Positions 4,093-45,600 of a stretch of 64,000 bases of DNA are shown in pieces. Source of the DNA: Pocillopora verrucosa (lineage: Eukaryota); NCBI RefSeq assembly GCF_036669915.1, contig NC_089312.1, positions 315,991 through 379,990 on the forward strand, written 5' to 3'. The stretch's first letter is position 1. Each line of letters begins with the position of its first letter. Under the pieces are notes generated by a model that made no database searches, had not been told where the DNA came from, and saw only the letters and a list, made by a program, of their open reading frames with translations. A program made the position numbers and the translations under genes.

Positions 4093-4557
4093 TCTGGAAA
4101 AAAAATCCCATTAAGAGCTCGTTGGTATAACCAAAACAATGATTTGATTTTTAGTACTTTCAATTAGGCGAAGAGCTTATAATTCACAAAAGAAAATCCT
4201 TCGATCAATCAACATATGAGACAAGACTGACGAAGCGGCATGAATTTTCAATACAATAAAGGAGTAAACTTCTAAAGAAACTGTGTTGCTGCGTCGGTGG
4301 GAGAGTATAAAAAGGTTATTTGGTATTATCAAACGAGCTAATAACGTAAGGTGGCCACCTCAAAGGGTTTCAAAGCAGACATTTCTGTGTTAGCCCTTCG
4401 TCAGAGCGAATCATTCGCCAATTTACGTTACCAACTAAGTTGGTAACAGCACATTACCTTGCTTCAGACTCCATTGTCATAACAATGCATGGTGCTATGG
4501 TCTGCTGATCAAAAACAACAATGCTTTTTTTTCCAAGATCAATCTTCGAAGATCTAC

Positions 4558-11903: not shown

Positions 11904-14126
11904 ATGGATGTTCCAACGTTGATGCATAACCTAAAGGAGGAAGTAACTTGTTCTGTATGTATGCAGTTATATACAGATCCCAAACAGCTGCCTTGTCTAC
12001 ATACATTTTGCCTACAATGTCTTAACAATGTTGCTCGAACAAGCAAACGAAATGGCATGATAAGATGTCCTCTTTGCCAACGTGAAGTAGCTGTGCCTGA
12101 TTGTGGTACAATGGAGTCTTTACCAGACTGTTTTTATCAAAAAAATCTTCTGGATATTTTGGCCATCAAGAAGTGCGGCAATGCTAAAGTGACTTGCGGT
12201 AACTGTGGTGAGAAAAACGAGAAAGTGTCTTATTGCTTCCATTGTGGGGAGTTTTGGTGCAGTGTTTGTCTAAGTGGGCATAATATCATTCGTGCGAACA
12301 AGGATCATCGTGTTCTCTCATTAAAGGATTTCGAAGACAAAGACTTCGAAGATGTTCTTAAACGACCGGCTTTCTGCTTGAAGGAACTCCACGAGCGACA
12401 AGTGCTGAAATTTTTCTGTAAAATGTGCAACGTCCCCGTTTGTCAAACTTGTGTCATAGTCGACCATGTCGGTCATAATGTTGAACATTTGGAGTTAACG
12501 GCGAAAGCTGCCAAGGAAAACATCATGATTCAATTAGACTTGGCTAAAAGTGCTGGTAAAACTCACACATACCTCAAAGAAGAGATGAACGAAATAGAAA
12601 ATTGCACTAAAGCCACCGTTGAAAAAATAAGAAATACAACCCAGTCAATTATTGGAAAACTTCAACAGTTTGAGCAAAAACTCACTTCAGAAGTTGAAGA
12701 TAAGGGCAAGGCAGCACTTGAAAAACTTTCAGTAAGAAGTACAGCATATCAGGCACAGTTGACCAAATATGAAGAAACCATATCACAGATTGAACACTTG
12801 GTTAACAGAGGTACTGCAGCAGAAGTCGTGCAGTTGCAATCCCATGTCAGTAAGTCCCTTCATGAATTGAAGATTGAACCCCCATGTAGAAATGAAGGTG
12901 AGGAAAGGTTAATTTTGGACTTCATTCCAAACCACTCTTTTCTTGAAAAGATTGATGATCTTGGAAGTACAGCACTGGGTACTCTGTCATGTAGTGCAAC
13001 TGTGGCAAGTAAGTGTACTGTAACTGCAAAACGTACAGCTATGGTTGGTGAAGAGACAAAGATTGAGATTGTCTCAAGGAATTCACGTGGGGATCAGTGT
13101 TACAGCTCAAATGACAGCATTTCCTCAAAATTTTCCCTTGTGGAAACAAACTGTTCACATGACTTTGTGTGGGAAACAGACTGTTCACGTGACTTTGTGT
13201 GGAAAACAGTGGATGAGAAGAATGGAAAGTATATAATTTCCTTTTACAGTAATTTGTTGGGAAAGGTCAGGGCTCAGTTCACAATAAATGGAGAACCTAT
13301 AAAGCAGACTTTACTTCTTAACATAAAGGGGAGAACTTATGCATCTGTGGATGTGATTCATTCAGACTTTTATAACCCATGGGGAGTTGCTGTTAATACC
13401 TCAGATGACATTTACGTTACTGACTTGAACAATAAAAAAGTGAAGATTTTGAGAGATCATGAGCCTTTTTCAAGAACCTTTGCATGTGATGTGTTTTATT
13501 CTCCTTCTGGAATCTGCACTGATTCTTCAGGAAGGATCTATGTCACAGACAGAGGTTTAAACAGAATACTTCTGTTCAATTCCAAACATGAATTATGCAA
13601 AAAGATTGGAGATGAGGGAGGACTGAAAGAACCACGTGGGATATCACTAGATCCTGAGGGAAACATTATTATCTGCAATTCAGGAAAAAGTTGTGTCCAA
13701 CTGCTTTCCTCTGAAGGGGACCTTCTCCTAACCTATGATGGTAGAGCTTGTGGACTTCAATTACCATTTGACTGCACTTTCCATGAAAACAATGTATATG
13801 TGTCTGATTTCAAAGGCCATAGTATCAAAGTTTTTAATGACGTTGGAGAGTTTTTATTTCAATTTGGTGAAGAGGGATCTGGGAATGGCCAGTTTAAATC
13901 ACCAACAGGACTAGCAGTGGACAAAGCAGGAAATCTCTTAGTTTGTGATGACTACAACCACAGAGTGCAAGTTTTTACCAAAGATGGAAGGTTCCTATCA
14001 AAGTTTGGATGTTATGGAAATGAAATGGGACAGCTGAATAAGCCAACGGGCTTGGCAGTCTGTCGGAATGGTGACATTGTTGTTGCAGAATTTGGAAATA
14101 ATCGTCTCCAATATTTTAGAAACTAG
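11904..14126 (+). CDS. TRIM-NHL family E3 ubiquitin ligase (RING, B-box1, B-box2, coiled coil, filamin-type Ig, 6 NHL repeats); complete single-exon 740-aa ORF
   Basis: ATG at 11904, TAG at 14124-14126, no internal stops. RING: CSVCMQLYTDPKQLPCLHTFCLQCL...CPLCQ. B-boxes: CGNCGEKNEKVSYCFHCGEFWCSVCLSGH and CLKELHERQVLKFFCKMCNVPVCQTCVIVDHVGH. NHL repeats include YNPWGVAVNTSDDIYVTDLNNKKVKIL, LKEPRGISLDPEGNIIICNSG, FKSPTGLAVDKAGNLLVCDDYNHRVQVF and LNKPTGLAVCRNGDIVVAEFGNNRLQYF. Confidence 0.95.
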   Translation: MDVPTLMHNLKEEVTCSVCMQLYTDPKQLPCLHTFCLQCLNNVARTSKRNGMIRCPLCQREVAVPDCGTMESLPDCFYQKNLLDILAIKKCGNAKVTCGNCGEKNEKVSYCFHCGEFWCSVCLSGHNIIRANKDHRVLSLKDFEDKDFEDVLKRPAFCLKELHERQVLKFFCKMCNVPVCQTCVIVDHVGHNVEHLELTAKAAKENIMIQLDLAKSAGKTHTYLKEEMNEIENCTKATVEKIRNTTQSIIGKLQQFEQKLTSEVEDKGKAALEKLSVRSTAYQAQLTKYEETISQIEHLVNRGTAAEVVQLQSHVSKSLHELKIEPPCRNEGEERLILDFIPNHSFLEKIDDLGSTALGTLSCSATVASKCTVTAKRTAMVGEETKIEIVSRNSRGDQCYSSNDSISSKFSLVETNCSHDFVWETDCSRDFVWKTVDEKNGKYIISFYSNLLGKVRAQFTINGEPIKQTLLLNIKGRTYASVDVIHSDFYNPWGVAVNTSDDIYVTDLNNKKVKILRDHEPFSRTFACDVFYSPSGICTDSSGRIYVTDRGLNRILLFNSKHELCKKIGDEGGLKEPRGISLDPEGNIIICNSGKSCVQLLSSEGDLLLTYDGRACGLQLPFDCTFHENNVYVSDFKGHSIKVFNDVGEFLFQFGEEGSGNGQFKSPTGLAVDKAGNLLVCDDYNHRVQVFTKDGRFLSKFGCYGNEMGQLNKPTGLAVCRNGDIVVAEFGNNRLQYFRN
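13141..13200 (+). repeat. In-frame 30-bp tandem duplication inside TRIM-NHL filamin domain
   Basis: aaactgttcacatgactttgtgtgggaaac / agactgttcacgtgactttgtgtggaaaac encodes ETNCSHDFVW/ETDCSRDFVW. Confidence 0.7.
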
Positions 14127-25300: not shown

Positions 25301-27887
25301 AAGCAAATAAAATTAAAATAATCGATAGCAGTTGTGCTTGTTGATGTGTTTGATTATTTCAAACAAGTCGACAGTTTGGAATACCATTGAATCGCCTCCA
25401 CAGATCTGAGAAAATTCTCAGGATTTTAAACATCACTCAAAGCAACAAATTAAATTTTAAAAAAGCCCGTCTGTATTTGGGAGGTAACAGATTTTATCTT
25501 CGTTTAACAAAAATTAGAGTACTTTTCAATTGATCGTCATCACCAGGATCTATGATTGGTCAAGAAAAATTCGCGCGACTCTGTCAACCAATCAAATACA
25601 CAAAATCCTAACCAATCGTGATTCGGTCAGTCGCGTTTTCCCGCGCTTCAAAACGTTAGCTTGCTTTCACCCTGTGTTCTCATTTGCTTCTTGTTTCATT
25701 TTCTTTCTTTCCTTATGACTGGCCTTGGTGAAAACTCTGGCTGCAATTTTGTAACGTTCGAATGAAACACGCTCTAAAATACCTAAATTTTAAGTAATAT
25801 TAGACCTATGATTTCATATAATATATACACTTATATCAGCAACACAGTCCAGCCATAACATGGTCATATAGTTCAGCACACTAAGTTGAATTATGCTGGT
25901 GCAATACAAACCAATATGATAAAAATACGTCTTATTGCCTTAAAAATATATTTGTTATATTGTTCAGTAATCTAACTTCAATAAAATATGTTGACACACT
26001 TTAAAAATTAAGTTTGTATCACATACAGTACTAAGATGCCTTCCACCTCTATAAAAAAAATTATTACCCTTCAAAACTTCTACACATCCAGTAAAGAAAT
26101 AGACGGAACTTCTACGTATGAAATCTCCTTTGATGCTGACTTTATAAGAAATAAGTAAATTTTTCCTATCCACTAAAAGGTCATTAGCTGAATCAATTTA
26201 TCTTAGACCAATTTAAGTTTATAATTGAATAATGTCACCTTTTGAAAAAAAAAACGTGATTAATAGAACAAAAAGCGATACGATAATGTGGCAGTCCTCT
26301 AGTTTTTTTAGTAAAACCAAAAATACCCAGAGGACTGGGAGTATGAGTTTGTCACAATACAGTTACGAGATAACCTTACAAAGGCATTCTTATTATATGA
26401 GATCTTTTTAAGTTAACATGCTGACTATGAAAAGAAACCAGAAAATTACCCACTAAAAAGTCCTCAGACTAAACATCTTCTCCTAATATGATAAAAAACC
26501 GAAACAATCAGTGGTTACAACGATGTTGTTGTTGTTAAAACTGTTACAAACACTCGACCAAAACCCATCATGCAACGGTGCAAGAAGTGCAATAAGTACA
26601 GACATAGGAATTGTCTAGCAATTCACAATTTTTGATAAACTTTACGTAGTAAATAACACATAAGGAAAAAAAAGCAAAGAAATGAATCCCCAAGCTATGT
26701 TCTCTATCATTCATATTTCATTCTTTGTATGACAATATTAAACTTAAGTTTTCAAACTCGTTTCATTTGTCACCTTCTACTAATATTGACAACTTTAAAC
26801 TGTGGCAAATGTGGAAACAGTTAAATCAAAACACGGTGGCTTTATGAAGAGGTTCTTTCTTGACACTGTGGAGTAAACAGTTTCCACATGATGCTAAGTA
26901 AAAAAAGTCATTAATTTGGTAAAAATACTTTTCTCAGATCGCTATTACTTGGAAAATAATCTTGATTAAAATTCAGCAGGTAGCAATGCTATAAAAGCTA
27001 GTTTCATTTAGCTTAATTATTATTGTATCAACCAAAGTATGTAAATAAAACTTTTTGGATGTAAAAATGCTACCACTACTGGTTACGTGTAAACACGATG
27101 GAAAACCCCTAAGTAGGCATTTTATCTCTTACATCAAGTGAAATAAATTATAACTTTTTAAACATCTAATTAGATACTATTATAAGAAACATAAAAAAGT
27201 ATTTAAAATTGGGGGATTCTTCACTGGAATGTTTTCAGGGAAGTTCATGAATTTCTGCTTAATGTAAGCTTGTACTTCACAATTTAACAAAATCCTGAAA
27301 ACACAGTAACATTATGGACAGTGTTCCACTCATGGAAACTACATCAATGTTAAAAACATAATTTTATAAAACATTTAACATAATTTCAAATATGCATGGC
27401 TGGACTGTGTTATTGATATTAAAGTATTGAGAATTGAACTAAATTGTAGGAAAAATGTTTCAACTTATACTTAATTCTAAAATAGACAAACAAAAAAACT
27501 GCTACCTTCACCTTGAAGAAAAAATTATCACCCCGCAAGTCAGACATGGCAAAAAATTAGCCACAGATGACTGTCTTCACACCTTAGTATGAGATACTTA
27601 TCTGGAACAGATTAACCATGCCACCTTGTCAAAAAGTCCTAAAATATGACAGGACAAATGTATTGTGCTAAAGAAAGAGACATGTCGGGAAAGAAGGGTG
27701 TCTCTTTGAAGAACCTCTGAATACAATTCCTGTTTCCAAAGATTGCACATACCCAAATTTTCAATTGTTTCAGAAATACATCTTTTCACTTGCTGATATT
27801 ATTTTGGGTGAGAAGAAGAAGGCAAAGAGAGTAAGAGAGAGAAAGAGTAAAGCTGGAAGGCAAACATGATGAAAGAATATTAATGAT

Positions 27888-28362
27888 CTAGAAGAAATTT
27901 TTAACCACCAGTTTGATTTTCTTGCGGCACACTGGACATTTCTTTTTTTCTTCCTTTAGTCTCTCCGCACATCCAATGCAACACACAAGATGACCAGTTC
28001 TTCCATGAACAATACTAGCATTTCGAGGTTGCGTCAAGCAAATTATGCACAAGTCAGGTGTAAACCCTGATGCAGAGTTTTCATTGTTGAAGTTCTGTAG
28101 CAAAGTTTTGCTGGGATTTTCAGCTTTTGATGTAGTGTGATTTGAAGCATGAGACAGTCTTTCAGTATTCTCCTTTACTGATGAAGATGAACCCTCAATA
28201 TATGATGCAAGATTAGGAAGTGGCGCAACTGTTGATAATGCCACTGTTGAGGATGGATGGTCAATGGTTGGTGTAACGGCAAGTGATGAAGATTTTTGTA
28301 GAGAATGTGAGCATGATTTGTCTGTTGATCCTGTTAAATCTATATTAGGTTCTGAAGTCAAT
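27888..28362 (-). CDS. MDM2: MDM2 terminal exon: Ser-rich linker + C-terminal RING finger; stop at 27888-27890
   Basis: CIICLTQPRNASIVHGRTGHLVCCIGCAERLKEEKKKCPVCRKKIKLVVKNFF vs MDM2 [54 protein letters not shown]. All Zn ligands are conserved. Acceptor TTTTCTATTTATAG at 28363-28376. Confidence 0.9.
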
Positions 28363-29383
28363 CTATAAATAGAAAAGAGAAATGTAAAAATACCTTAGAT
28401 AGTACTGCTTCCATATTGGTTGTGGTTATGTCAAGCTATCATGAACCTGAGTTTCGGACTCAATTCAAACACCTCAAATCAAAACTTACTGTCGAGTTAC
28501 TGAAAATGAACAGATAGATTCCATGTTGCTGTGCCTGTTTGGCAAAAGATCACAGATGACATCACAATGTGGAAAACAAAAAGGGACATACAATGTACAG
28601 CCGAGTGTGTCACTGATGTTCTTGCCACATCATAAAGTCTTCTGTAATCTTTAACTGTACAGACCCTCAACAACATTAAAATTCTACAAAAGCAAAATGT
28701 TGATAATGATGATGTCATCTATGTGTCCATTCTCCAATACCCAGTCAAAATGCATGTAAAACTACAAATTAAACTGAATGTGTACAGACCTTTTCAATGT
28801 AGGCAGCCAGGCATGTCTCTCAATCCAGCAACGAGCACATCGGGGAGAAAATGGATGGTTTTTCAAGTCACAATGTGAGCATGCCCAAAAGTCATCTTCA
28901 TCAAATTCTGAATCAGATTCCCTATCCCCTTCATACTCATCTCCTCCTTCAGCCCCAGGATCCTCTTCTGAACTGGTTATATTTTCTTATAGAGAACAGT
29001 AAAAGCCAATGAGTATTGAGTTCAAATACTGTTACATATCTACCTCAATTCTGTTTTTTCTCTGTTCAAGGTCCTAGGGATGACTTCTCACTATGGTAAA
29101 AGTTACTTGGGCATCTCAAAGGTTTATCCAAAATTTCACGTAATTCAACTTGTGAAAATGCCTTTGCACTAAAATGTACACATTGAACTCTGCAGCTCAA
29201 TATCTCTTGCTCTGTACTAAACAAACCATCCCAGACAACACTTTGAATCAGCCCCTCTAGAAGGATGGGAACAAACATTCCATGGAAATTAAATATAATT
29301 ACAATTTTGGTTCCTATGACTTCACATTTATTTCTGATAAATGTTGGCAAGTTGGTGATTCCAGCAGAAGACTTATGTACCAT
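27888..29383 (-). CDS. MDM2: MDM2-family E3 ubiquitin ligase homolog (gene-level span; three recognisable coding exons)
   Basis: N-terminal SWIB/p53-binding-like exon, acidic + RanBP2 zinc-finger exon, and C-terminal RING exon all on the minus strand in correct order. The ZnF and RING exons splice in frame (AG + A = Arg). Confidence 0.85.
28790..28972 (-). CDS. MDM2: MDM2 exon: acidic region + RanBP2-type C4 zinc finger (acceptor ATAACCAG at 28973-28980, donor GAAAAG|GTCTGT at 28789)
   Basis: SSEEDPGAEGGDEYEGDRESDSEFDEDDFWACSHCDLKNHPFSPRCARCWIERHAWLPTLK vs MDM2 [34 protein letters not shown]. Confidence 0.85.
29066..29383 (-). CDS. MDM2: MDM2 exon: start codon + SWIB/p53-binding-like domain (3' donor position uncertain, candidates CATA|GTGAGA ~29087)
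   Basis: ATG 29381-29383. ...GMFVPILLEGLIQSVVWDGLFSTEQEILSCRVQCVHFSAKAFSQVELREILDKPL aligns with MDM2 [52 protein letters not shown] (FSxxExRxI motif). Confidence 0.65.
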   Translation of the reverse strand: MVHKSSAGITNLPTFIRNKCEVIGTKIVIIFNFHGMFVPILLEGLIQSVVWDGLFSTEQEILSCRVQCVHFSAKAFSQVELREILDKPLRCPSNFYHSEKSSLGP

Positions 29384-29441
29384 AAGTTCCCTCTTATATG
29401 TTCTTTGACCAACTGCTTAAAAATGCAAACAATGTTTGCTA

Positions 29442-31517
29442 TCACAAACCAGTATCACTTTCATCGTCATCTTCCTCTTCTTCCTCAGGTTCTTCTGTGT
29501 CAGAATCAGGAGGCTCATATTCCACAGTCTCAACATCTCCTACAACAAAATAAATATACATCAGCCTATCATAGTTAAGTAAGAAATTGACCAAAAAAAA
29601 AGGGGCTGCACCCCTTCCTAAAAGGTTGCATGTACCTCATCTGTAACCACCCCTTGCTCTTTACAAAAATGACAAATCAGATGAGTAACTTTCAAATATT
29701 ACTGACATAAAAAGATAAGTTTACAAATTATCACTTCTTAGGAGAAATTACAGCTGATCTTTATAGATCCCTCAAAGTAAATTTTAGTCTTCCCTTCTTT
29801 ACAGCTCAAGTGCACAAAAGTAACATTATTTCAGCAAAGCAGTACTTAACCCTTTGACTCTAATGAGAGACCAAGACAGAATTTCTCCTTACAATATCAA
29901 TACAAAATCAAGTATATTACTGATGAGAGTAAATAAAAATATGAATTTGGGGTTTATTGGTTGATTTAATGCCAAAGCCCCTTACTAACATGATAAGAAT
30001 ATGAAGGCAGACAGCATAGAGAATTACTAATATGATCATCGGACTGAAAGGGTTAAATGTTGCAGGTTTTAAGAAGATGCTAACTTGCATACCATTCAGA
30101 AAAAAGAGATCATCTTCAGAGTCAGTCACAATAGCAGTCACAGCAGACTCGTAACCTTTCACAAAGTAAACTGTGCTGGATGATTCAGACACTTCACTCT
30201 CACTTTCTGATGCTCTTGTTGATTTGAACCCAATACACCAAGGAATTCGCTCTGGAGGACTGTAACTACCTTTCACCCCAAGAACATCTGGAAAACAAGA
30301 AAAACACTCCAGGTTAAAGTTCAATATGACAGTCAGATTTATTTTTGCTATGAAACATACAAGTAACACACTTAGTAGAGTTGTCTACAATTGCAGAAAT
30401 CAATTAAGACATGGTTTTATACCACAATTAGTGTGTATTTCACTCTAAATACACCAGCATTAAGAATCATGATTTTATAATGAAACTAACTGGCAACTTG
30501 ACAATTAAGTGGTCTGTTTATGAATGATGTTCTAATGACATCATGCACAGCAAGATATCATGTACTTTGGTCTTGGCCTTCAAAGGTAGAGAAGGGAATT
30601 TTCAAATCAAATACCCAAAAACAGGGAACACTTAAGAAGATAATCGGTTCAACTTTATCAACAAAACTGTTCATAGTTGAAATTGCATCTCAGGGCACAA
30701 CCTTTGGCAGATGACAAATATTTTTTATCAGTTAAATTCCTTCATAAAATAACCAAATATTTTTTAAATTACAAATAATGAGATTGGATCAGTTTATCCA
30801 ATTGAAACTAATTTCCTTTTGAAGCAAGAAAGCTGACCACAAAAATACATCTAAAGAAAGCATCTCCATACCTGTCCATGATCCTCGTTTTCTTTTTCTA
30901 CCTTCCACACTTTTCTTCTTACCAAAGCCTCCTGTATTATTTAAAACAATTAAGGTATAATGGGTCTTTCAGTAACCTGCCAAAACTGAATGTGGGCCAC
31001 AAACTGGCATGACAGCATTTCAACCTTATTGATCTCTTCAAATCTCATAACAGAATTATATCATTACTTGCATTTCACATTCAAATGCTGTAAACATTAC
31101 TCTGAAAGAACAATATATTTATACCTTGTGGTTAACTCTCCTTACAGAGAACATTTAGTCAGATTGCCATAAGAGGATTAAAGATAAACATTCTGCTCAG
31201 TACTACCATAATATTTACTGTAAGAGGGTGCTTAACAATAGATGACAATGTTTTTCATCCTATACTAAATTGCAGGAAGTAGTTGCTTTATTAAGTTAAG
31301 AGAGGACACACTTTTTCACACGCACTGAGTTGGTATGTTCAAGGATGGCTTAATGACATGTTGCAAAAACATGTCTGTGATAATAAAAATGAAAAATGTT
31401 AGATGCTAGTTATAACATGCTCATAGTCATGGTGCTAATTTGGACACTATAAACATTGAACATTGGTTACCTTGCTCATTGTCTGAACTATCACACTGTG
31501 GACCAATCCGTATCTCA
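29442..31517 (-). CDS. Unidentified gene immediately upstream of MDM2: NLS-containing protein with acidic C-terminal tail (exons 31471-31517, 30852-30932, 30093-30287, 29442-29538; all phase-consistent)
   Basis: Spliced reading: ...EIRIGPQCDSSDNEQ|GGFGKKKSVEGRKRKRGSWT|DVLGVKGSYSPPERIPWCIGFKSTRASESESEVSESSSTVYFVKGYESAVTAIVTDSEDDLFFLN|GDVETVEYEPPDSDTEEPEEEEEDDDESDTGL*. Donors/acceptors: GAGCAAG|GTAACC, AATAATACAG|, GGACAG|GTATGG, TTTTCCAG|, GAATG|GTATGC, TTGTTGTAG|. Stop TGA at 29442-29444. More 5' exons likely lie upstream. Confidence 0.5.
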
Positions 31518-34500
31518 CTAGAGAAATCAAATAAATAAACATTCATGAATATAAATTAGTACAGCTTTAACTGACTGATGAATTAAGTAACACTCCTTCA
31601 AATTGGTCCATGAATTTCATTAAAGATCTGTTTTCATGAATGTATGGTGAGGTCATATGACTGTAATCTGACAAACAGAAACAATAGAATTGAGTTACAA
31701 CAAAAAGAAGGTGGGTGAAAGGATTAACCTTTGAGCTCTGAGATGTTTCATAACAGTTGGTTTTAGAGATCCCAACTTTTCCATGCACAAGGTCACACAA
31801 ACAACAAAACATAAATAACTTGTTTAGTTAAATCATACTAAAAGCCTCACATAAATAACATTAAATTAAGAGACAATTATTGGTACAAGGAAGCTTGTCA
31901 CATCATGGATAGATGTCCAAAATCTTAGTGCAATTTTCAGCAAAGTTATCATCTCAGAGAGAGCTTGCCTCTATTTTAAGGTACATTGACATAAATAACC
32001 ATGGCCCCTAAAAATTGTGTTCAGTACAGTTTCCAAACCATGAATCTTTCACCCTTTTCCAAAATCTCTCCATGTACATCCAATTCACAAACCACATATG
32101 TGTAGACTGGATTTCACCTTTTAAATCAATAAGGGTGAAACATAAAGTGCACCTTTTAAGTGCTACCAAGTGTCTTACTCCTTAACAAACAAAGGGGAAT
32201 TTTGGTCTATTTTGACAATCTTGGCATGATCAAATCCCTTATTCTCATAATTAACTAGTATTGGAAAGGAAATAAAGGGAGGAAGGTTTTTCCAGCTGCT
32301 TGGGACTTTTAAAAAACTGCATGAAATAGATGTACAATATAATAGTTTGCACTGCACATTAAAAATTCCAATCAGTTGTTCCAGTTATGTTTTATAATGG
32401 GCTTGCCCATTATGTTCTGTTGAAAGAATGAAATAAACATTTTTACTCCACCCTGATAACCCAGGGAGCATGCCAAGGCCAGCCCAAGAAGAGCCCTTAT
32501 CTTTTTGCTGTAGAAAAAAAAACAGGCATGGGGCATTAAAATAGCGTTATAAAAATAGAGAAAAATTTGCATAAGCTAATTGGTGCAATGCTGTGCTGCT
32601 CCAACACTAATTCACCAGTTTTCATGAAGTCCTACAATAAATTCACAACCTATGCTATTTTGCACACCAGTTTGCTAGAACCTCTACTATTTATCAATTC
32701 ACTGTGCTTAATGAATATAACCTAATTGGGGGATTGCATTTATAGCAGTGAATGCATCAAGGAAAAAATCTGGTAGCCCTAATTCAGATGCAGATAAAAA
32801 AAAATGTGAGTTTGTATAATTTAGCAACATATAACATTTAAACTCATATTATTTGAAAGCAGTGAACCAAATCTAAATGAACGGTTGAGATTGTTTCGCT
32901 GGAGTGACCACGTTTTTCTAATAGCACTAGGGCAGTTGTTCAGACTCGTTCGATTGACAAGCCTCGACTTGTCCTAGGTATCAATACCGTAGTGATGCAG
33001 CCATCAGGATGGAATGCTAATGTCATTTATTGGCGATCGTAGATCACGAACGACATCTTTAAGCCTCTATACCGTGCATTTAACAGTTCGGTAACTTATT
33101 TTGCACCACGCTCTCCTAGGTCAACAACATGTAAATGCAAATAAAATAACACGAGGTCTTGCTTTGTGAAGCGAAAAGCAGTGTGCTGTTGACGAGATAA
33201 AAGTATTGCAGCGTTTATCAGACGATGTAAGCCACTAAGTACCGAAAGATTTTGAGCTCTTAATATCGCTAAAAGAATGTCAAGATCGGCAAGAAGATGA
33301 AAAAAAGAAAAAAAAAAATAAACCCAATCACATCACACAACACACTGATCGAATGTAAGATGAGGGCAAAACAGTGGGTTGGTTCCTGGGTCACTTGGAC
33401 GAAAAATGAGAAGAATAATTCAGAATCTTAACAGCAAGGCTCTTATGATAACAAACAGATGTTCTGAGGTCTGATTGAGAGGGAAAGGAAAGTAAAAACA
33501 GAGATGCCAAGAAATTAGATACGGTCTGGCGTTGAGCGTGGGAAAACGACCTTTAACATTTTGCTATAGCCGCGTCAGTCGTCGGCTAGAGCCATAATCC
33601 GGGCTTTATTTCAATTTGCGTAGTGCGATTGAGGAATAATAATTCTTCACAGATAAGTAGAATGAGTCTTCAACAAATACACATGTTTGAGATACCTCCG
33701 ACGAAAATGAAAGGCCATAACGTGTAACTCGACCTCTTCACATGGGACAACAGATTATGTTCATGTAACTCGCGTATTAATGAATGGACAAAACCTTTCT
33801 TGAACAATCAACTCATCACCTAAGATTCACTGACCTCTAAAATTCGAGTGAAATTCTTACGTTTCTAAATAGCTAAGGGCGCGAAAATTCTCGGCTTACA
33901 TTTCCCAAGTGTATTTTAGCGTGGGTACCATTCTGTGAAGATTTCGGATATGTCCTTTCACGTCCCAAGATATAGCGCGGCGAGAACTGTGGTATTCACA
34001 GCAATGGAAAACAGGGAAACGGCGAAATTACTTAATTAAAATGTATCCCGAGTTAAATGTTTGCCGTGGATTTTGTAATCAATGGGAGATTTCGCCATAA
34101 CTTTTCCATGCGATTACAAAAAAATATTCACGGTTGAATTTTACATTCAAAATATTGCAAAACAAATGTCTGTTTAGCTGACTATCACAATCACATTATT
34201 CAAGCAACCCTTGCGCAAAATTACCGATAAAATCAAGGAAATTACTAAAGAGAGCAAAAAGGTTGGGCTTACAAACAACAGCAAGATGTGAATTGCGGAC
34301 AAGCCGACTTCGCTCTGAAGGAAGTTATAGTAACACTACTTATCGATACACTTGGGGCTCCCGATGACAAAATTTATCAAACAACTAGACTCATAAATAG
34401 TTGAAAGTACAGTCTAACTTACCAAGCCTTCTGCTCGACCAAAGCGCCATCCATAACCTTCTTATCAGTCCCTTCACTCCACGCTCACCGATACACATGA

Positions 34501-35640
34501 ACGTTCATATCCTTGCTTTCGGTCCATGGACTTCGAAGACAAATGCTTCTACACTTAGGAGAATTTCATACTGATCCTCATCCAAATTTTCAGCTGAAAC
34601 ACTGCTAGATTTTCTAAAACAATTCTCTTCTCTTTTTCGTTGAGAAAAACCTCTCTCGAACAAAAGGAATTTAGAAATAAACGACAAAACCAGGTATAAA
34701 TTGGTATCAAAAAGAAATAATGTTGTTCAGTATTCGGTTCGAAACCAGTAGTTCGAACCCTCGATGGACTTGAATTTCTCCCAAATGGCGCCGGAAGCTG
34801 GGCACCTCGCACCGGATACCAAGGCTTGACAATGAGCGAACTTGTCCAAGCATGTCCTGATTATCATTGGCTGTTTAAATTTTAATCTTGGTGCTGATTG
34901 GTCTGTTTTTGACAGCTTTCTTTTAGAGCTATTTCACTTTCGCGCGCTTTTTATCAGCTAGTTATCAATGGCAATTTCGCGCGCATCAGTGCCCTTGTTG
35001 ACCTTATTTTGTCAGTCGGAACGCTTTCGCTCACCAACCGCAAATTGTTTTGCTTGAACAGGTCGAAACATGAATTTTGACCTGAAAGAGAAATTTCTGT
35101 AAAAAGAAAACGAATTTTTTCTTTTTTTTTTAGAAATGAATAGATATGAATCAAGGCTTCTTCAACAGCCTTCAAGAGCGACTTTTTAAAGTAAAAATTA
35201 GAGCAGACAAAGTTTGGTGTACTCAAAAAGTGGCGTGAGCAACAATGAAAATAAACTTTATCATTCCACCTTACTTACGGCGCCCTTCAAGTAAATTATC
35301 CTAAATTGGATGGTTACGTGATTAACATAAATGCAAACATTTTAATGTCGCTTGGCATCAATTCATCCCCTCTGCTTTAGTGGGAATGTTTTGTTTTGCC
35401 AAATATTTTCATTAAAACTAGTCCCTCTTGGTATGTTTGCAATCCGTGGATTTTTTAAAATCTATGCGATGAAAATGTGAAATCTGTTTCCCCTCTTACT
35501 GTTTTCTCCTTAGTACAAAATTTCAATTGGCATTTATTGAAACCTGTGATGCCTCGTTGGGGTGAAATAAGGGGACAAGAGTGCAACCTTTTTTTTTTGG
35601 ACAGACGTTTTCATTGATTGATTGATTGGATTTTTTGAGT

Positions 35641-37139: not shown

Positions 37140-37990
37140 TTAGCAGGACATCTGCAGCGCCTCTCTTACAACCATCTCTAAAATGAATTTCATAAATTCC
37201 ACGTTGTTTGACAACCAATTCATTATTGACCTCAGCAAAATACGAGCTGCTTGAACTGACAGTGTTAAGGGTACTGTTATCAAATTTGACGAATTTTTCG
37301 TTGTTGTGACTAGGACTGTGAATATAAAAAAATAGACACCATTTCTGACCCATCGATTTTTAAAAAAATTGTTCGTCTTCGTATCAATGTACCGTTTATT
37401 ACTTCTATCTGTTTGACTAGTCGGGTCAGCTAGATTAGAAATTGCGTTTCCTTTCACATCGAGGCCGTTAGACAAATCGAGGGAGAAGGCTTTTGAATCA
37501 ATATATATTTTGTTCATAACATCTTGTGGTGATGAATTGCTGCTGTCATAGTATGGAATCAACAGTCCTGATTACAAAGTCTGTGGAAGCAAGTTATCCA
37601 TATCCGGCGACTTTTTCGCTAGTTATGTCAGTCATCTGATGATAATGTAACAGCGGCATCATCATCATTTTGACCTCTTCTTAAATCAGTCATCAGCTTA
37701 TTATCAGCATCCCATGCATTATTTTTATCAATTTTTAAACCAGTTGAATCACCCTTAGGCCCTTGAATTTCATAAATTTCTCACCTTTTGGTCCTTGATC
37801 ACCAGTATCACCTATCAGACCCTGAGCACCGGTATCACCTTTTGGTCGTTAAGTACCGGTATCACCTTTTGGACCCTGAACTCCTTGAGGACCAGCGGAT
37901 CCTGGAGGCCCCTCCCTACCCCGTTCTCCATCATTACCTTTCAAATTTTCTTTAATGTAACTATCACCATTAAATGCTCCCATATATACA
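37140..37990 (-). pseudogene. Collagen-like (Gly-X-Y) ORF interrupted by an in-frame stop, followed by a possible C1q/TNF-like region; probable pseudogene or fragment
   Basis: Minus strand 37990-37750: MGAFNGDSYIKENLKGNDGERGREGPPGSAGPQGVQGPKGDTGT*RPKGDTGAQGLIGDTGDQGPKGEKF. A 15-bp direct repeat GGTGATACCGGT(G/A)CT flanks the TAA. Downstream ORF 37126-37562 has weak C1q-like character (VKFDNSTLNTVSSSSSYFAEVNNELVVKQRGIYEIHF). Confidence 0.35.
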
Positions 37991-39448
37991 TATGATTACA
38001 TATTTTTGAAGTAGTGTTTGATCAATTTTTCATTATGATTGGTGCCAGTTTGTGAAAATGGTTTTATGACATCATAATAATCTTTGTGTCTGCTTGATTC
38101 ATTAATGTAATACTGACAATAGTAACTACACAACACACTCATCAAATTTTGATACTGAGTACTGTTATAAAGATAAATCAATCCCCGTTTATCTGACAAC
38201 TGAACAACTTCTGGTGGACAGAATGAATTCCGGGTTCAATTTTGTCATCCAAATTCGTGACGTAATAATAACCGTTTTTGAATTGATTCCGTATTTGATC
38301 CATCCAAAAAACACCATTGAAATTTTTGATTCTGAAGTATTTTATCCACTTAAAGATATCAAAGTTTTATATCGCAGTGTCAACAAATTCGGTTCTTAAA
38401 ATATGAGTAACCCCGTTGTGACAACAGAAAATATTTGTTTGGAGACTCTTTTAGTTGTGTTATTTTTTGTTTCTGTTTGTGTTTCCAATAGTTTGATTAG
38501 TTCCTCTCCTTTATCTTCCTTGGGAGTGTCACGAATTCCTACCTTTTTGGGAGTGTCATGAATTTTTTCTCCCTTGCGAGTGTTAAATTTGTCACTAATT
38601 TTACTCCGATAAGCTGACCTGTTTTGCTTCCAACATTTTCTGCACTTTTTTCGTTGGCTTTTGTTGCTGCTTTTGTGGCCAGATCTTTGACAACTTTCCA
38701 GTCAGTTTGAATGACCAAGATCAAAAAATCCTTCATCATTTTGTATATTTTCAGCAGGCTTCACGGTGTCCACATTGTAATACATATATTGAGTTAGCGT
38801 TTCATGCGATCAATTTAAAAAAATTGATCTCGTTCGGCCAACTCCCACACTACTGACTACTTTTGTACACAGCTGACACCGATTTCACATACTTTTTAAA
38901 AGTATCTTTATTATCATATCTCACAACTGCACAATTAGTTTGGTAATAATTATCTCAATGCTTTTGTAAATACGGGCCGTAATACATTTTATGAATTGAC
39001 CGGATATAGTTTGGTTGAATAGCTTTAAATGTTGTTTAAATTCAAAATCCTCGCCCTCTTTCATCATGCAATAGAACCATCTACTGTCTTGCTATAGTTT
39101 GGTCAATTACAGAAAACCAAAGTAATAATTATTTATCACTTAAAAATATGTGTTATATGGGGAAAACTCGAAAAATCTTGGTGCATACGCTGCGCGATGT
39201 ATTATCAATTATTAGCGTTCCGCAACTGCACACGTTTAAAAAAAGGCGTAGTCATGAGTGGGGACTGAGATATGATGTATAACACCTTGAGAATGCCAGA
39301 GAATACCAACTTAGCAAATATTTATGCTCTGATGTGTCCAAATTGGTGTTTTTTATTTTTGAGGTGTATGAAATATCTGTTTTCAGCCGAAGTTCAATCG
39401 AACCTCCTCTGAATATTTTGGTTTCTTTGGTTGAGCAAGTTACTTGTT

Positions 39449-42600: not shown

Positions 42601-45600
42601 TTAGCCATTCCTATTTCATAAGGGCTAAACTCCATCCATTCTGTTGTAAAAAGAACGTATCATACAAGCTGACGCATTTACAACTTGTCCGACTCTCACT
42701 ACGTCTAGGCTAATGACAGAGTTCTTACGCTGTTTTCATTTCTTTGATCAAGTTTCATAATATTTTGCACTTTTGATATCTTTATCATTTTTCAGTGAAG
42801 TACGCATGCAGTTCTATGTTGCAATATCGATTATCTGACTTGGTCTCTCCAAGATCAGTAGTGATATATTTTACTCACGGCTTTATCATAATTTCCTCAA
42901 CCTAACTGCATCTTTTTTGCAGCCTTACCGCGTTAATTCCACAATTTTTACGCATCCAAAATTTCACACTATCCATGATTCTTGTATTACTATCACACTA
43001 AATTTGTCTATGCCTATTTGGAATTGCTTTACAATATGGTGCGACTTAAACGAAGAATATTTGAAATCTTACCATTGTATGCCTTAGCCGAAACATCATT
43101 CTTCACGTGCACACATGTGTAAAGCGGAAGGGGAACGTTCCCGTGTTTGACTGCGCCACGTTGATCGCTCAGTTTCGGAATATTTTTGAGCTAAAAACGA
43201 AATTCAAGAAACAATTACTTAACAAAAATTACGGCTCTTACATTTGGCAGACTTAAAGAGCGGCTGAAAAGGAAACACTTGTATTCTTAACATATTCAAC
43301 AAACACGCTTTCAACTAAGATATTATTGGCAGACTTAGATTAGACGGCAAACTCTTCGACAACAGGGTGATCACAGACTGAGCGTGATCATACATCGAAT
43401 GCAAGTTGAAATTTAAAAAACGGCGTCACGATGTAGTAGCGTCTGCGGTGAGACCTAAAATGAACTTGTCTATGGTTCTGCGCGGTTTGCGGCATCTTTT
43501 TGTCCTATATCATTATTACAGTTATTAATCTGAAAAGGATTAATAGGATTTCAAGTAATACTTACGTCTCTCAATATGGTTTCACCCACGAGGTAGCCAA
43601 AGAAATCGGTAAAACTGATTGGCTGGCCTTGTATTTTTTTCTGATGGATGATTTTGATGTGCTTGTACAACCACGAAGGTGTCAACATCCAGATCCAGTT
43701 GTATTGCACGTTTTGCCTCAGCTGTTCCATCACTTTCTTTGGATGGACATTTGGAAATTCAGGATGAGAATACAACGTGGAGAGGTACCTAAAGTATGTA
43801 AAAGGTTAACAATGTGTCGTGATGCATTGCGCAAAAAAACAGCGAAAAGAAAATTGATGTTAGCGCGCAGCGAGGAACTCTTGAGGTAAGGCGCACGAAA
43901 AGGAGCAACCGTAACATTTATGTGCCTCACTTCCACACTCCCGCGTGGTGCGCAAAAATCAACCCTTTTTTTTTTGCTGATTCTTTTGCATGCACGACGG
44001 ATTTCGTTACAAACTAAGAGAAAATTACGGGTGAAAGAGGAACAATAAGGCGGAATATTTTGATTGCATCAAAATCTTTTTTTAATCTTTTTACTTACGC
44101 TGAAACGCAATTATTTTCGTTCAAAGAATACCTTTCCCTGTCTTCTTCGAGGTCGTTTTTATCGACAAAAGTTTTCTCCTTGCAGTTTCAAGCTATATCG
44201 TTTTTGCTGGGAAAAACAGATCCAGGTTAAGCCCCCTATGTATAACACGGTAGACTGTCTTCTGTTCAAGAGACTATTGTCTTTTGTATAAACTTACCAA
44301 GTTGATCCTGACAATCCCGCGGCATACATGGCACAGTCCAACACACCCATATCTTCTAGCGCACAAAACACACCACTAAGGCCAACCATGGCTCGAAAAC
44401 CACCTCCGGACCCAACAATACCCACAGTTGGTATCTAGGAGGAAAATAACGACTATGAATAAGTAAGACAAACCAATGCAATTTATCTTTGAGCTTTAAT
44501 TTGACACTGTCTCCAAATACTTTAAATTGGTTACCATCAGAAACCTCATGTTCATCTGTTCCTGGGAACTTCACATTCACCCGTTCAGCAATCGACGAGC
44601 TGGGCCAGAGGTGGGAAGGGTTGGATAGGGGAGGGTAGGTAGGGATTTGTACCCCACGAGATAAAAATATACCTTAAATTTGTTAATGCTTTAGTACCTC
44701 ATACCATAAAGTACCGAAAGTTGTTGAATGTTGTCAATGTACAAACACAAAAAAAGTTATTGAAAAACGAAAATATTGTTTATTTGAATACCCCAAACGC
44801 TTGACCGAGCCTGACTTCTAAAGGTGTTTGTGAGAAGGAAATTACACGGAAAAAAATAGAAAAATAGGCTAACCTCATCCATACTCTTTGGTCCTCTTGG
44901 TCCGAGAAGCTTCCTCATCGCTTGAAACAAGAAAGGCTTCCTGTTCTCTCGAAAATCGATTTCATCCTTACATAGTTTCAAGCTGTATCGCATGTCACGG
45001 GGCTCTGCACTATAATGCAAATTATTCTTTTCAGTTTACTGTTTGCATTTTAGATGGAAGGATGACCTTTAATAAGACAAAATGAAAAATTTACCAGTTT
45101 TTAAGCTCGAGCGTAATGTCCACCTCTGAAGTCTGCATGCAGAAATGAAGAAAGAAGTAGACAACGTTAGAACTGTTTGAAGACATTTCACAATTTTGAC
45201 ACAAATTCTAATCGAGCTTAAAGTCCGAGTAAAAAGTGGATTGGTTAGTAGAAAAAAGAAATTTCTATCTAAATTGTGCTGTATTTTTTTCAATCACTGA
45301 TATGTAAAACACAGAAGTGTACCTACGTCGTAAAACAGATATCAGTACACACTCCTCACCACCAGTTAAACAATAAACATCAATCAGTGTAAACATAATC
45401 TAGACTTTCTGACAAAAATAAACACAGAAATACTTGCAGATGAAAATGACAGTTTACAATACTTTTGGTCTCGTTAATTCGTTACACAATTTCCTAAACT
45501 GTACACAAAATCAGTACCTGTCGAAATACGAAAGTTTTGCGCAAAATTCTATCGATTTCCAGACCACTCAAGGGAAAGGTCTCTGTTTCCCCGACCAAAT

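What the first reader, a model, noticed from the sequence alone, without database searches (positions are those of the whole stretch)
27888..29383. Compact MDM2 homolog with all four hallmark modules in an invertebrate-type genome
SWIB/p53-binding-like N-terminus (FSxxExRxI motif), acidic stretch, RanBP2-type C4 zinc finger (FWACSHCDLKNHPFSPRCARCWIERHAWLP) and a C-terminal RING with every Zn ligand and the aromatic C-terminal tail (VVKNFF) are all present. They sit in only ~1.5 kb with three coding exons. MDM2 is absent from the classic invertebrate models (fly, nematode), so a complete, compact MDM2 suggests an intact p53-MDM2 axis in this organism.
Basis: partly seen in the sequence, partly recalled or inferred. 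Interest (0 to 1): 0.6.

Follow-up and report, generated by a model that had tools for sequence, protein, structure and literature searches.

The report
Coral MDM2 gene lacking p53-binding domain

Summary
The RanBP2-type zinc finger, the acidic stretch and the C-terminal MDM2-type RING with its VVKNFF tail are real, on the minus strand at the stated places. The "SWIB" ORF (29066-29383) is not real. It lies in intron 5 and an RNA-derived contig skips it. It has no Pfam, PDB, BLASTP or fold similarity to SWIB, and it is not conserved in other corals.

The true gene has 7 coding exons spanning at least 7.1 kb (34501 to 27398). Its 364-aa product is identical to RefSeq XP_058958408.2, "E3 ubiquitin-protein ligase Mdm2 [Pocillopora verrucosa]". 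No SWIB exon is found in any minus-strand frame from 36400 to about 30800, nor in four homologues from other corals. More distant relatives do carry SWIB.

This matches Aberg et al. 2017: cnidarian MDM lacks the p53-binding domain. The finding is therefore an already known, SWIB-less MDM gene, and an "intact p53-MDM2 axis" is not supported at the protein level.

One extra result was not found in the searchable literature. A perfect canonical p53 response element sits about 390 bp upstream of the ATG. It is conserved with at most 1 mismatch in all six other coral loci examined (five distinct sequences). A second p53-like cluster sits in a conserved intron-1 block.

The parts
34423..34501 (-). 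Exon 1: at least 47 nt of 5'UTR plus the ATG at 34454 (MDGALVEQKA, first base of codon 11)
   Evidence: RNA contig L001 block 1; GT-AG model reproduces L001 length exactly
31471..31517 (-). Exon 2: (C)EIRIGPQCDSSDNEQG. The motif is conserved in all full-length coral homologues aligned
30872..30931 (-). Exon 3: basic, NLS-like stretch KKKSVEGRKRKRG (30920-30882)
   Evidence: the NLS function is inferred from composition only
30093..30287 (-). Exon 4: conserved Ser/acidic block SESESEVSESSSTVYFVKGYESAVTAIVTDSEDDLFFLN (30210-30094)
29450..29539 (-). Exon 5: acidic exon (G)DVETVEYEPPDSDTEEPEEEEEDDDESDT. Residues 73-172 are 42% Asp+Glu
28986..29449 (-). Intron 5 (464 nt, GT..AG).
28790..28985 (-). 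Exon 6: acidic run followed by the RanBP2-type C4 zinc finger (residues 174-203, 28890-28801)
   Evidence: PF00641 E=2.7e-5; PDB 2c6a MDM2 zinc finger E=4e-6; four Cys and the Trp invariant in 8 corals
27398..28362 (-). Exon 7: Ser/Thr-rich linker, MDM2-type RING (residues 312-356, 28049-27915), aromatic tail KLVVKNFF (27914-27891), stop codon 27890-27888, and at least 490 nt of 3'UTR
   Evidence: PF13920 E=9.6e-13; MDM2 RING structures E~1e-16
34838..34857 (-). Perfect canonical p53-family response element, gene-sense GGACATGCTTGGACAAGTTC (two RRRCWWGYYY decamers, no spacer, no mismatch). It lies 384-403 bp upstream of the ATG. An adjacent weaker decamer sits at 34822-34831
   Evidence: conserved with <=1 mismatch at the same promoter position in L003, L004, L005, L006, L007 and L009
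34860..34990 (-). Conserved core-promoter block: two GCGCGCGAAA (E2F-like) boxes and two CCAAT boxes immediately upstream of the p53 element
   Evidence: alignments A2 and A3; factor assignments are by consensus only
32942..32974 (-). Intron-1 cluster of three p53-like decamers (GGACAAGTCG AGGCTTGTCA n3 GAACGAGTCT), about 1.48 kb downstream of the ATG. It lies inside one of the few non-coding blocks alignable between Pocillopora and Montipora

Best explanation
The interval is the 3' part of the single-copy-looking Mdm2 gene of the stony coral Pocillopora (verrucosa or a near-identical congener).

Gene and product (shown). The gene has 7 coding exons on the minus strand, with the transcript covering at least 34501 to 27398. 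It encodes a 364-aa MDM-family RING E3 ligase. In order, the protein has:
- a short conserved N-terminus;
- a basic NLS-like stretch;
- a long Ser/Asp/Glu-rich acidic region;
- a RanBP2-type C4 zinc finger;
- a Ser/Thr-rich linker;
- an MDM2-type C2H2C4 RING that ends in an aromatic tail at the very C-terminus.

It has no SWIB/p53-binding domain.

How it most likely works (inferred from the vertebrate family).
- The RING dimerises through the C-terminal aromatic tail and recruits a charged E2. The E2-contacting Ile, Pro and linchpin Arg are conserved.
- The acidic and zinc-finger module is the docking surface that in vertebrates binds RPL11/RPL5 and the p53 core domain.
- Without the SWIB pocket, the protein cannot clamp a p53 transactivation-domain helix. 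Any control of the coral p53/p63-like factor must use other contacts, or the ligase has other substrates.
- A perfect p53 response element conserved across stony corals in the promoter, plus a second cluster in intron 1, suggests the gene is still transcribed in response to the p53-family factor.
For: Gene model:
- RNA contig L001 (Logan SRR5963014) aligns in 7 blocks.
- The GT-AG model reproduces its 1632 nt with 7 mismatches.
- The translation is identical to XP_058958408.2, Mdm2 of Pocillopora verrucosa.

Family:
- PDB phmmer gives full-length human MDM2 at E=3.9e-18, collinear over query residues 93-364 and MDM2 residues 230-490.
- MDM2 RINGs score ~1e-16 and MDM4 RINGs ~1e-14. The next RING families (IAP, MUL1) score ~1e-3.
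- Of 10 distant full-length relatives from the 1.8-billion-protein search, 9 carry SWIB plus RING. This is also a positive control for the Pfam SWIB model.

No SWIB:
- Pfam on P0001 and three other coral proteins finds none.
- Pfam on all three minus-strand frames from 36400 to about 30800 finds none.
- The same 7-exon layout is seen in Montipora and one other coral locus; a further three loci fit it.

Literature:
- Cnidarian MDM (Nematostella, Hydra, Acropora) lacks the p53-binding domain (PMC5543598; PMC10303687).

Conserved residues:
- All Zn ligands, I314, P350 and R353 are invariant in 8 corals. The aromatic tail is kept in 7 of the 8.

p53 element:
-.
- Nematostella nvp63 binds and transactivates from the canonical p53 element (PMC1964547).
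Against: - No experiment here shows E3 activity, dimerisation, RPL11 binding or p53-family binding. All of these are transferred from vertebrate MDM2.
- The zinc-finger Pfam score (23.8 bits) is below the gathering cut-off of 27.
- The AlphaFold model of the full protein was uninformative (pLDDT 35.6). Folded or disordered assignments therefore rest on sequence only.
- A minor isoform with far-upstream exons (beyond 36400) cannot be formally excluded from one window. None of the named database products for Pocillopora, Stylophora, Orbicella, Oculina or Montipora has the length expected of a SWIB-containing form (337-387 aa). Pfam was run only on the Pocillopora, Oculina and Montipora ones and on one unnamed coral homologue.
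- The p53 element is a consensus match plus conservation, not a binding result.
Confidence: 0.9

Rival explanations
1. One reading: a complete four-module MDM2. The SWIB/p53-binding domain would be encoded at 29383 to about 29087 and spliced to the zinc-finger exon, three coding exons in about 1.5 kb.
For: A donor at 29106 (CCA A|gtaact) would be phase-compatible with the acceptor at 28985 (read from the sequence). The ORF contains FSQVELREI and ILLEGLIQSV, each 5 of 10 identical to human SWIB 10-mers.
Against: - The RNA contig joins 29450 to 28985 and skips the ORF.
- No Pfam SWIB hit, no PDB hit and no BLASTP alignment to human MDM2 residues 1-187.
- Low-confidence four-helix model with no SWIB match.
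- The ORF is absent from the orthologous introns of Montipora and one other coral locus (L005).
- 5-of-10 matches occur 51 times by chance within the gene span.
- The RefSeq product is the 364-aa form.
Confidence: 0.01
2. The gene does have a SWIB domain, but it is encoded by alternative or far-upstream exons outside the region scanned, or used only in a minor isoform.
For: Only 36400 to about 30800 was scanned frame by frame. The literature notes that interaction domains are sometimes found only in minor splice variants (PMC10303687).
Against: - The start codon and exon 1 are conserved in at least six coral loci. A conserved promoter (CCAAT and E2F-like boxes, p53 element) lies directly upstream.
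- DNA upstream of 36400 on the same strand carries other coding sequence: a collagen-like exon at 37852-37995 and a C2-domain exon at 45494-45931.
- No named database product from Pocillopora, Stylophora, Orbicella, Oculina or Montipora, isoforms included, has the length expected of a SWIB-containing form. Pfam finds no SWIB in the four coral products tested.
- Aberg et al. found the same in three other cnidarians.
Confidence: 0.04
3. It is not an MDM orthologue but an unrelated RING ligase that merely resembles MDM2 in its RING.
For: The SWIB domain is missing and the zinc-finger Pfam score is sub-threshold.
Against: - It is collinear with human MDM2 residues 230-490 across acidic region, zinc finger and RING.
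- There is a gap of about 11 or more orders of magnitude between MDM2/MDM4 and other RINGs.
- The RING sits at the extreme C-terminus with an aromatic tail.
- The nearest non-cnidarian relatives are SWIB plus RING proteins.
Confidence: 0.03

Closest known systems
Cnidarian MDM (Nematostella vectensis, Hydra vulgaris, Acropora digitifera) as described by Aberg et al. 2017 (PMC5543598); RefSeq XP_058958408.2 Mdm2 of Pocillopora verrucosa
   Same: Acidic domain, zinc-binding domain and RING are present, and the p53/p63/p73-binding domain is absent. The window's product is 100% identical to the RefSeq protein.
   Different: Nothing at the protein level. The conserved promoter and intron-1 p53-type elements were not found described in the searchable papers.
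Vertebrate MDM2 / MDM4
   Same: - Collinear acidic region, C4 zinc finger and C2H2C4 RING at the extreme C-terminus with an aromatic tail.
- All Zn ligands, and the equivalents of I440, P476, R479, Y489 and F490, are conserved (residue roles from established MDM2 structural work).
- p53 response elements lie in the 5' regulatory region, including intron 1.
   Different: - No SWIB/p53-binding domain.
- 364 aa rather than about 490 aa.
- The tail ends at FF, one residue shorter than human ...YFP.
- GRTGH instead of GKTGH in the RING.
- Single gene rather than an MDM2/MDM4 pair (not testable from one window).
Trichoplax adhaerens TaMdm2 (Lane 2010; Siau et al. 2016, PMC5039725)
   Same: A non-bilaterian MDM with putative p53 response elements 320-540 bp upstream of the coding region. 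The coral element is 384-403 bp upstream.
   Different: TaMdm2 retains the SWIB domain; the coral protein does not.
SWIB-less splice isoforms of human MDM2 (e.g. MDM2-ALT1/MDM2-B; from general knowledge, not checked here)
   Same: They retain the RING and lack the p53-binding domain.
   Different: In humans these are alternative, often tumour-associated, products of a gene that also makes full-length MDM2. In corals the SWIB-less form is the only product seen.

Membership tests
Canonical MDM2/MDM4 (four-module E3 ligase) | N-terminal SWIB/p53-binding domain (Pfam PF02201) | tested here: not met
Positive control: 9 of 10 distant relatives hit PF02201 at 1e-5 to 1e-12.
Canonical MDM2/MDM4 (four-module E3 ligase) | Central acidic domain | tested here: met
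   Residues 73-172 are 42% Asp+Glu. The region is collinear with human MDM2 from residue 230 onward.
Canonical MDM2/MDM4 (four-module E3 ligase) | RanBP2-type C4 zinc finger between the acidic domain and the RING | tested here: met
   PF00641 E=2.7e-5 at 23.8 bits, below the 27-bit cut-off. PDB MDM2 zinc finger 2c6a E=4e-6 and MDM4 2cr8 E=7e-4. C177, C180, C191, C194 and W175 are invariant in 8 corals.
Canonical MDM2/MDM4 (four-module E3 ligase) | C2H2C4 RING at the extreme C-terminus with an aromatic tail | tested here: met
   PF13920 E=9.6e-13. MDM2 RING chains score E~1e-16. C312, C315, H326, H331, C335, C338, C349 and C352 are invariant, and the protein ends ...VVKNFF then stop.
Canonical MDM2/MDM4 (four-module E3 ligase) | Closest relatives are MDM2/MDM4 rather than other RING families | tested here: met
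   PDB: MDM2 3.9e-18 and MDM4 ~1e-14, against IAP and MUL1 at ~1e-3. In the representative library, non-cnidarian full-length hits carry SWIB plus RING. Sources name cluster members Mdm2 or Mdm4-like.
Canonical MDM2/MDM4 (four-module E3 ligase) | Binds the p53-family TAD and ubiquitinates p53; RING dimer E3 activity | not testable with these tools
   Needs biochemistry. Absence of SWIB predicts no TAD clamp.
Canonical MDM2/MDM4 (four-module E3 ligase) | Gene is a p53 transcriptional target (response elements in the promoter or intron 1) | tested here: inconclusive
   A perfect canonical element at 34838-34857 is conserved with <=1 mismatch in six other coral loci. A second cluster lies in a conserved intron-1 block. 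Binding and induction were not tested.
Cnidarian SWIB-less MDM (Aberg et al. 2017) | Acidic domain, zinc finger and RING present, p53/p63/p73-binding domain absent, in a cnidarian | tested here: met
   The organism is Pocillopora, by 100% protein identity. Literature.

The most novel reading that the evidence does not exclude
The transcriptional half of the p53-MDM loop survives in stony corals even though the protein-protein clamp (MDM SWIB pocket plus p53 TAD motif) is gone.

- A perfect p53-family response element in the MDM promoter has been kept across the deepest split within stony corals (Pocillopora to Montipora).
- A second p53-like cluster sits in a conserved intron-1 block.
- The second cluster echoes the vertebrate intron-1 P2 promoter and the putative elements upstream of the Trichoplax Mdm2 coding region.

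If these sites are functional, p53-driven MDM transcription is ancestral to animals and separable from SWIB-TAD binding. The coral MDM would then act on the p53/p63-like factor through other surfaces (acidic domain to DNA-binding domain), or serve a different p53-induced function.
Probability: 0.45. Interest if true: 0.5.

Novelty: already known. Interest (0 to 1): 0.2.

Why it matters
As filed, the finding would have implied a complete p53-MDM2 clamp in a cnidarian. That would contradict the published picture. It does not hold: the gene is the known, annotated SWIB-less coral Mdm2.

The practical value is a corrected gene model and a clear negative on SWIB.

The modest positive is the deeply conserved p53-type element in the promoter and in intron 1 of a SWIB-less MDM gene. 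It offers a cheap, direct test of whether p53-family factors still drive MDM in animals where MDM cannot grip the p53 transactivation domain. Possible assays are EMSA or reporter assays, and measuring MDM mRNA after UV or heat stress in corals.

Tried and rejected
All negative.
- Hidden SWIB exon: Pfam on the three minus-strand frames from 36400 to about 30800, with stops masked, gave no family at all.
- AlphaFold of the whole protein with an 8-sequence coral alignment gave pLDDT 35.6 and was unusable. It was therefore not sent to fold search.
- P0005 (Oculina) could not be located in the contig index. L002 was too short to include intron 5. L008, a more distant relative of unknown species, did not reach the promoter.
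- The conserved intron-1 block at about 33557-33535 was tested as a possible hidden exon with tblastx. The alignments contain stop codons and only about 8 conserved codons, so it was rejected as coding.
- Rfam and tRNA scans of the window found nothing.
- A search for the SRA run in the paper library found nothing. The species was obtained from cluster members instead.
- Literature searches for a p53 response element in a cnidarian MDM promoter returned nothing relevant.
Full report
**What is in the sequence**

- The last ORF (28361-27888) ends in a RING finger, PF13920 E=9.6e-13. The final residues are ...KLVVKNFF before the stop codon.
- An upstream ORF segment (28986-28765) holds an acidic run followed by FWACSHCDLKNHPFSPRCARCWIERHAWLP. 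It matches the RanBP2-type zinc ribbon PF00641 at E=2.7e-5, 23.8 bits, slightly below the curated 27-bit cut-off.
- These two observations are correct.
- The third piece, the ORF 29066-29383 offered as a SWIB/p53-binding domain, gave no SWIB hit even at E<=10.

**The real gene model**

A conceptual splice of the acidic, zinc-finger and RING exons retrieved a 364-aa protein, P0001, at 100% identity. It also retrieved a series of stony-coral proteins that their sources call Mdm2-like.

- P0001 is encoded by a 1632-nt contig assembled from an RNA run (Logan SRR5963014).
- That contig aligns to the window in seven blocks.
- With GT-AG boundaries the exons are 34501-34423, 31517-31471, 30931-30872, 30287-30093, 29539-29450, 28985-28790 and 28362-27398.
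- Their concatenation is exactly 1632 nt and differs from the RNA contig at 7 positions.
- The CDS runs from the ATG at 34454 to the stop at 27890-27888, giving 364 aa with one difference from P0001 (T220A).
- The acidic exon ending at 29450 is joined directly to the zinc-finger exon starting at 28985.
- The gene is not three exons in 1.5 kb. It has seven coding exons, with 6.6 kb of CDS span and at least 7.1 kb of transcript span.

**Identity of the gene and organism**

The 90%-identity cluster of P0001 contains XP_058958408.2, 'E3 ubiquitin-protein ligase Mdm2 [Pocillopora verrucosa]'. It also contains entries from P. damicornis and P. meandrina. The neighbouring clusters are Stylophora pistillata 'Mdm4-like' and Orbicella faveolata 'Mdm2-like'.

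The window's spliced translation is identical, residue for residue, to the P. verrucosa RefSeq protein. The gene is therefore already annotated.

**Testing the SWIB claim**

- PDB holds very many MDM2 and MDM4 N-terminal domains, yet the ORF has no PDB sequence match to MDM2/MDM4 at E<=10.
- A single-sequence AlphaFold model is poor. The best model has pLDDT 63.5 and the other four 34-36. It shows four helices.
- Its best Foldseek hit in the PDB has E=1.2, and no MDM2 or SWIB entry appears among the 50 hits listed.
- The ORF has no tblastn or blastn counterpart in the orthologous loci of two Montipora assemblies or another coral.
- The FSxxExRxI resemblance is post hoc. On the minus strand inside the gene span alone, 51 ten-residue windows share 5 of 10 residues with some 10-mer of the human SWIB domain.

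A SWIB exon hidden elsewhere was also sought:

- Pfam on P0001 and three other coral MDM proteins finds RING and zinc finger only.
- Pfam on all three minus-strand frames from 36400 to about 30800, with stops masked, finds no family at all.
- As a positive control, ten more distant full-length relatives from a search of 1.84 billion representative proteins were scanned. Nine carry PF02201 SWIB (E from 1e-5 to 1e-12) together with the RING.
- The tenth, P0031, shares the coral-specific motifs and is SWIB-less.
- The Pfam model therefore detects SWIB in diverse MDM proteins, so its absence here is meaningful.

**Family assignment**

phmmer of the coral protein against all PDB chains gives the following:

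- Full-length human MDM2 is the best hit (8bgu_F, E=3.9e-18). The alignment is collinear, with query residues 93-364 matching MDM2 residues 230-490.
- MDM2 RING chains follow at ~1e-16 and MDM4 RINGs at ~1e-14.
- The MDM2 zinc finger 2c6a scores 4e-6.
- The next RING families (IAPs, MUL1) appear only at ~1e-3.

In an alignment of eight coral homologues, the four zinc-finger cysteines and the eight RING ligands are invariant. So are the positions equivalent to human I440, P476 and R479. The aromatic C-terminal tail is kept in seven of the eight; one transcript-derived sequence ends differently.

The protein is therefore an MDM-family member by three of the four canonical modules, and it lacks the fourth.

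**What is already known**

- Aberg et al. 2017 (PMC5543598) state that MDM is present in Cnidaria (Nematostella, Hydra, Acropora digitifera) but lacks the p53/p63/p73-binding domain. They also state that cnidarian p53-family proteins lack the TAD.
- Mihalic et al. 2023 (PMC10303687) repeat this.
- Pankow and Bamberger 2007 (PMC1964547) note that Nematostella nvp63 lacks the MDM2-binding motif. It nevertheless binds and transactivates from the canonical p53 response element.
- The corrected finding is thus an instance of a published pattern.

**Likely mechanism**

Shown here: domain content, conservation and gene structure.

Inferred from vertebrate MDM2 biology:

- The RING forms dimers through the C-terminal aromatic tail and activates an E2~ubiquitin conjugate.
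- The acidic and zinc-finger module is a docking surface. In vertebrates it binds RPL11/RPL5 and a second site on the p53 core domain.
- The basic stretch KKKSVEGRKRKRG probably acts as a nuclear localisation signal.

Because there is no SWIB pocket, the ligase cannot clamp a p53 TAD helix. Regulation of the coral p53/p63-like factor, if any, must use other contacts.

**An additional observation: conserved p53-type elements**

The window was scanned for two RRRCWWGYYY decamers with 0-13 nt spacing and at most 2 mismatches.

- This gave five hits. Shuffled sequence gave 3.2 +/- 2.0 per window.
- Four of the five hits lie in the 5' part of this gene.
- One is perfect, with no spacer: gene-sense GGACATGCTTGGACAAGTTC at 34857-34838. 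It lies 384-403 bp upstream of the ATG and about 340 bp upstream of the 5' end of the RNA contig.
- My rough estimate of the chance of a perfect site is about 0.003 per window.

The same element is found at the same promoter position in every other coral locus examined:

| Locus | Sequence | Mismatches |
|---|---|---|
| L003, L004 (Montipora) | GGGCATGCTTGGACAAGTTC | 0 |
| L006 | GGGCATGCTTGGACAAGTTT | 0 |
| L009 | GGGCATGCATGGACAAGTTC | 1 |
| L007 | GGGCAGGTTTGGACAAGTTC | 1 |
| L005 | GGACATGCTCGGGCAGGTTC | 1 |

- The element sits immediately downstream of conserved CCAAT boxes and two GCGCGCGAAA boxes.
- Between Pocillopora and Montipora, only four blocks of the 3.9 kb of promoter plus intron 1 are alignable: the promoter block, exon 1 and two intronic blocks.
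- One intronic block (33020-32937) holds a second cluster of three p53-like decamers about 1.48 kb downstream of the ATG. It is conserved in five loci.
- Siau et al. 2016 reported putative p53 elements 320-540 bp upstream of the Trichoplax Mdm2 coding region (PMC5039725).
- I found no paper in the searchable library describing such elements for a cnidarian MDM.
- This suggests, but does not prove, that p53-family-driven transcription of MDM persists without the SWIB-TAD clamp.

**Verdict**

The zinc finger, acidic stretch and RING are real. The SWIB domain and the compact three-exon structure are not.
It is an MDM2-family gene, but it is not a complete four-module MDM2 and it is not evidence for an intact protein-level p53-MDM2 axis.
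- The gene is annotated in RefSeq and its SWIB-less architecture is published, so novelty is 'already known' and interest is low.
- The conserved p53-type elements are a modest lead worth a bench test.

Noticed in passing
window 34838-34857 (and 34822-34831): Perfect canonical p53-family response element, about 390 bp upstream of the Mdm2 ATG. It is conserved with at most 1 mismatch in six other coral loci (L003-L007, L009). An adjacent weaker decamer lies next to it.
   Followed up: yes
window 32937-33020 (decamers at 32942-32974): One of only two intron-1 blocks alignable between Pocillopora and Montipora carries three p53-like decamers about 1.48 kb downstream of the ATG. This is reminiscent of the vertebrate MDM2 intron-1 P2 promoter.
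   Followed up: partly
window ~33535-33557, within the conserved block 33389-33712: Near-invariant 24-nt core (TGTTAAAGGTCGYTTTCCCACGCT) in intron 1, shared with Montipora, L006 and L007. The tblastx alignments contain stops, so it is probably regulatory rather than an exon. There is no Rfam hit.
   Followed up: partly
window ~34860-34990: Conserved core-promoter block with two GCGCGCGAAA (E2F-like) boxes and two CCAAT boxes. TTCCGG/CTTCCG (ETS-like) motifs lie just downstream of the p53 element.
   Followed up: partly
window ~32441-32506: The GenBank Pocillopora damicornis model RMX57735.1 (387 aa) inserts 23 residues (KKIRALLGLALACSLGYQGGVKI) that correspond to this intron-1 stretch. The RNA contig and the RefSeq P. 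verrucosa product do not use it. It is likely an ab initio prediction artefact.
   Followed up: partly
window 27398-34501 versus L001: Seven single-base differences between the window and the RNA contig. One is non-synonymous (Thr220 in the window, Ala in P0001). Another cluster member has I144V. This is ordinary polymorphism within Pocillopora.
   Followed up: yes
window 11904-14126 (+): Intronless 740-aa ORF encoding a TRIM-NHL protein: RING, B-box, filamin repeat and NHL repeats (PF01436 E=1.3e-42).
   Followed up: partly
window 660-4163 (-): Exons of an ABC transporter (PF00005 in ORF 1248-2462). The flanking ORFs look like its transmembrane domains.
   Followed up: no
window 45494-45931 (-) and 37852-37995 (-): A C2-domain exon (PF00168 E=1.4e-9) and a collagen triple-helix exon (PF01391 E=1.3e-5) lie upstream of the Mdm2 gene on the same strand. 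They indicate separate neighbouring genes.
   Followed up: no
P0031 (484 aa, from the representative library; no locus): A more distant SWIB-less MDM-like protein shares the coral-specific motifs (DxSDxEQ, RKRKR, IPWCLGF, VKGYDxAxTAVITDSEDDFFF, EYEPP, DEDPGADGGDEYD). The SWIB-less architecture and these motifs therefore extend beyond the coral homologues examined here (species unknown).
   Followed up: partly
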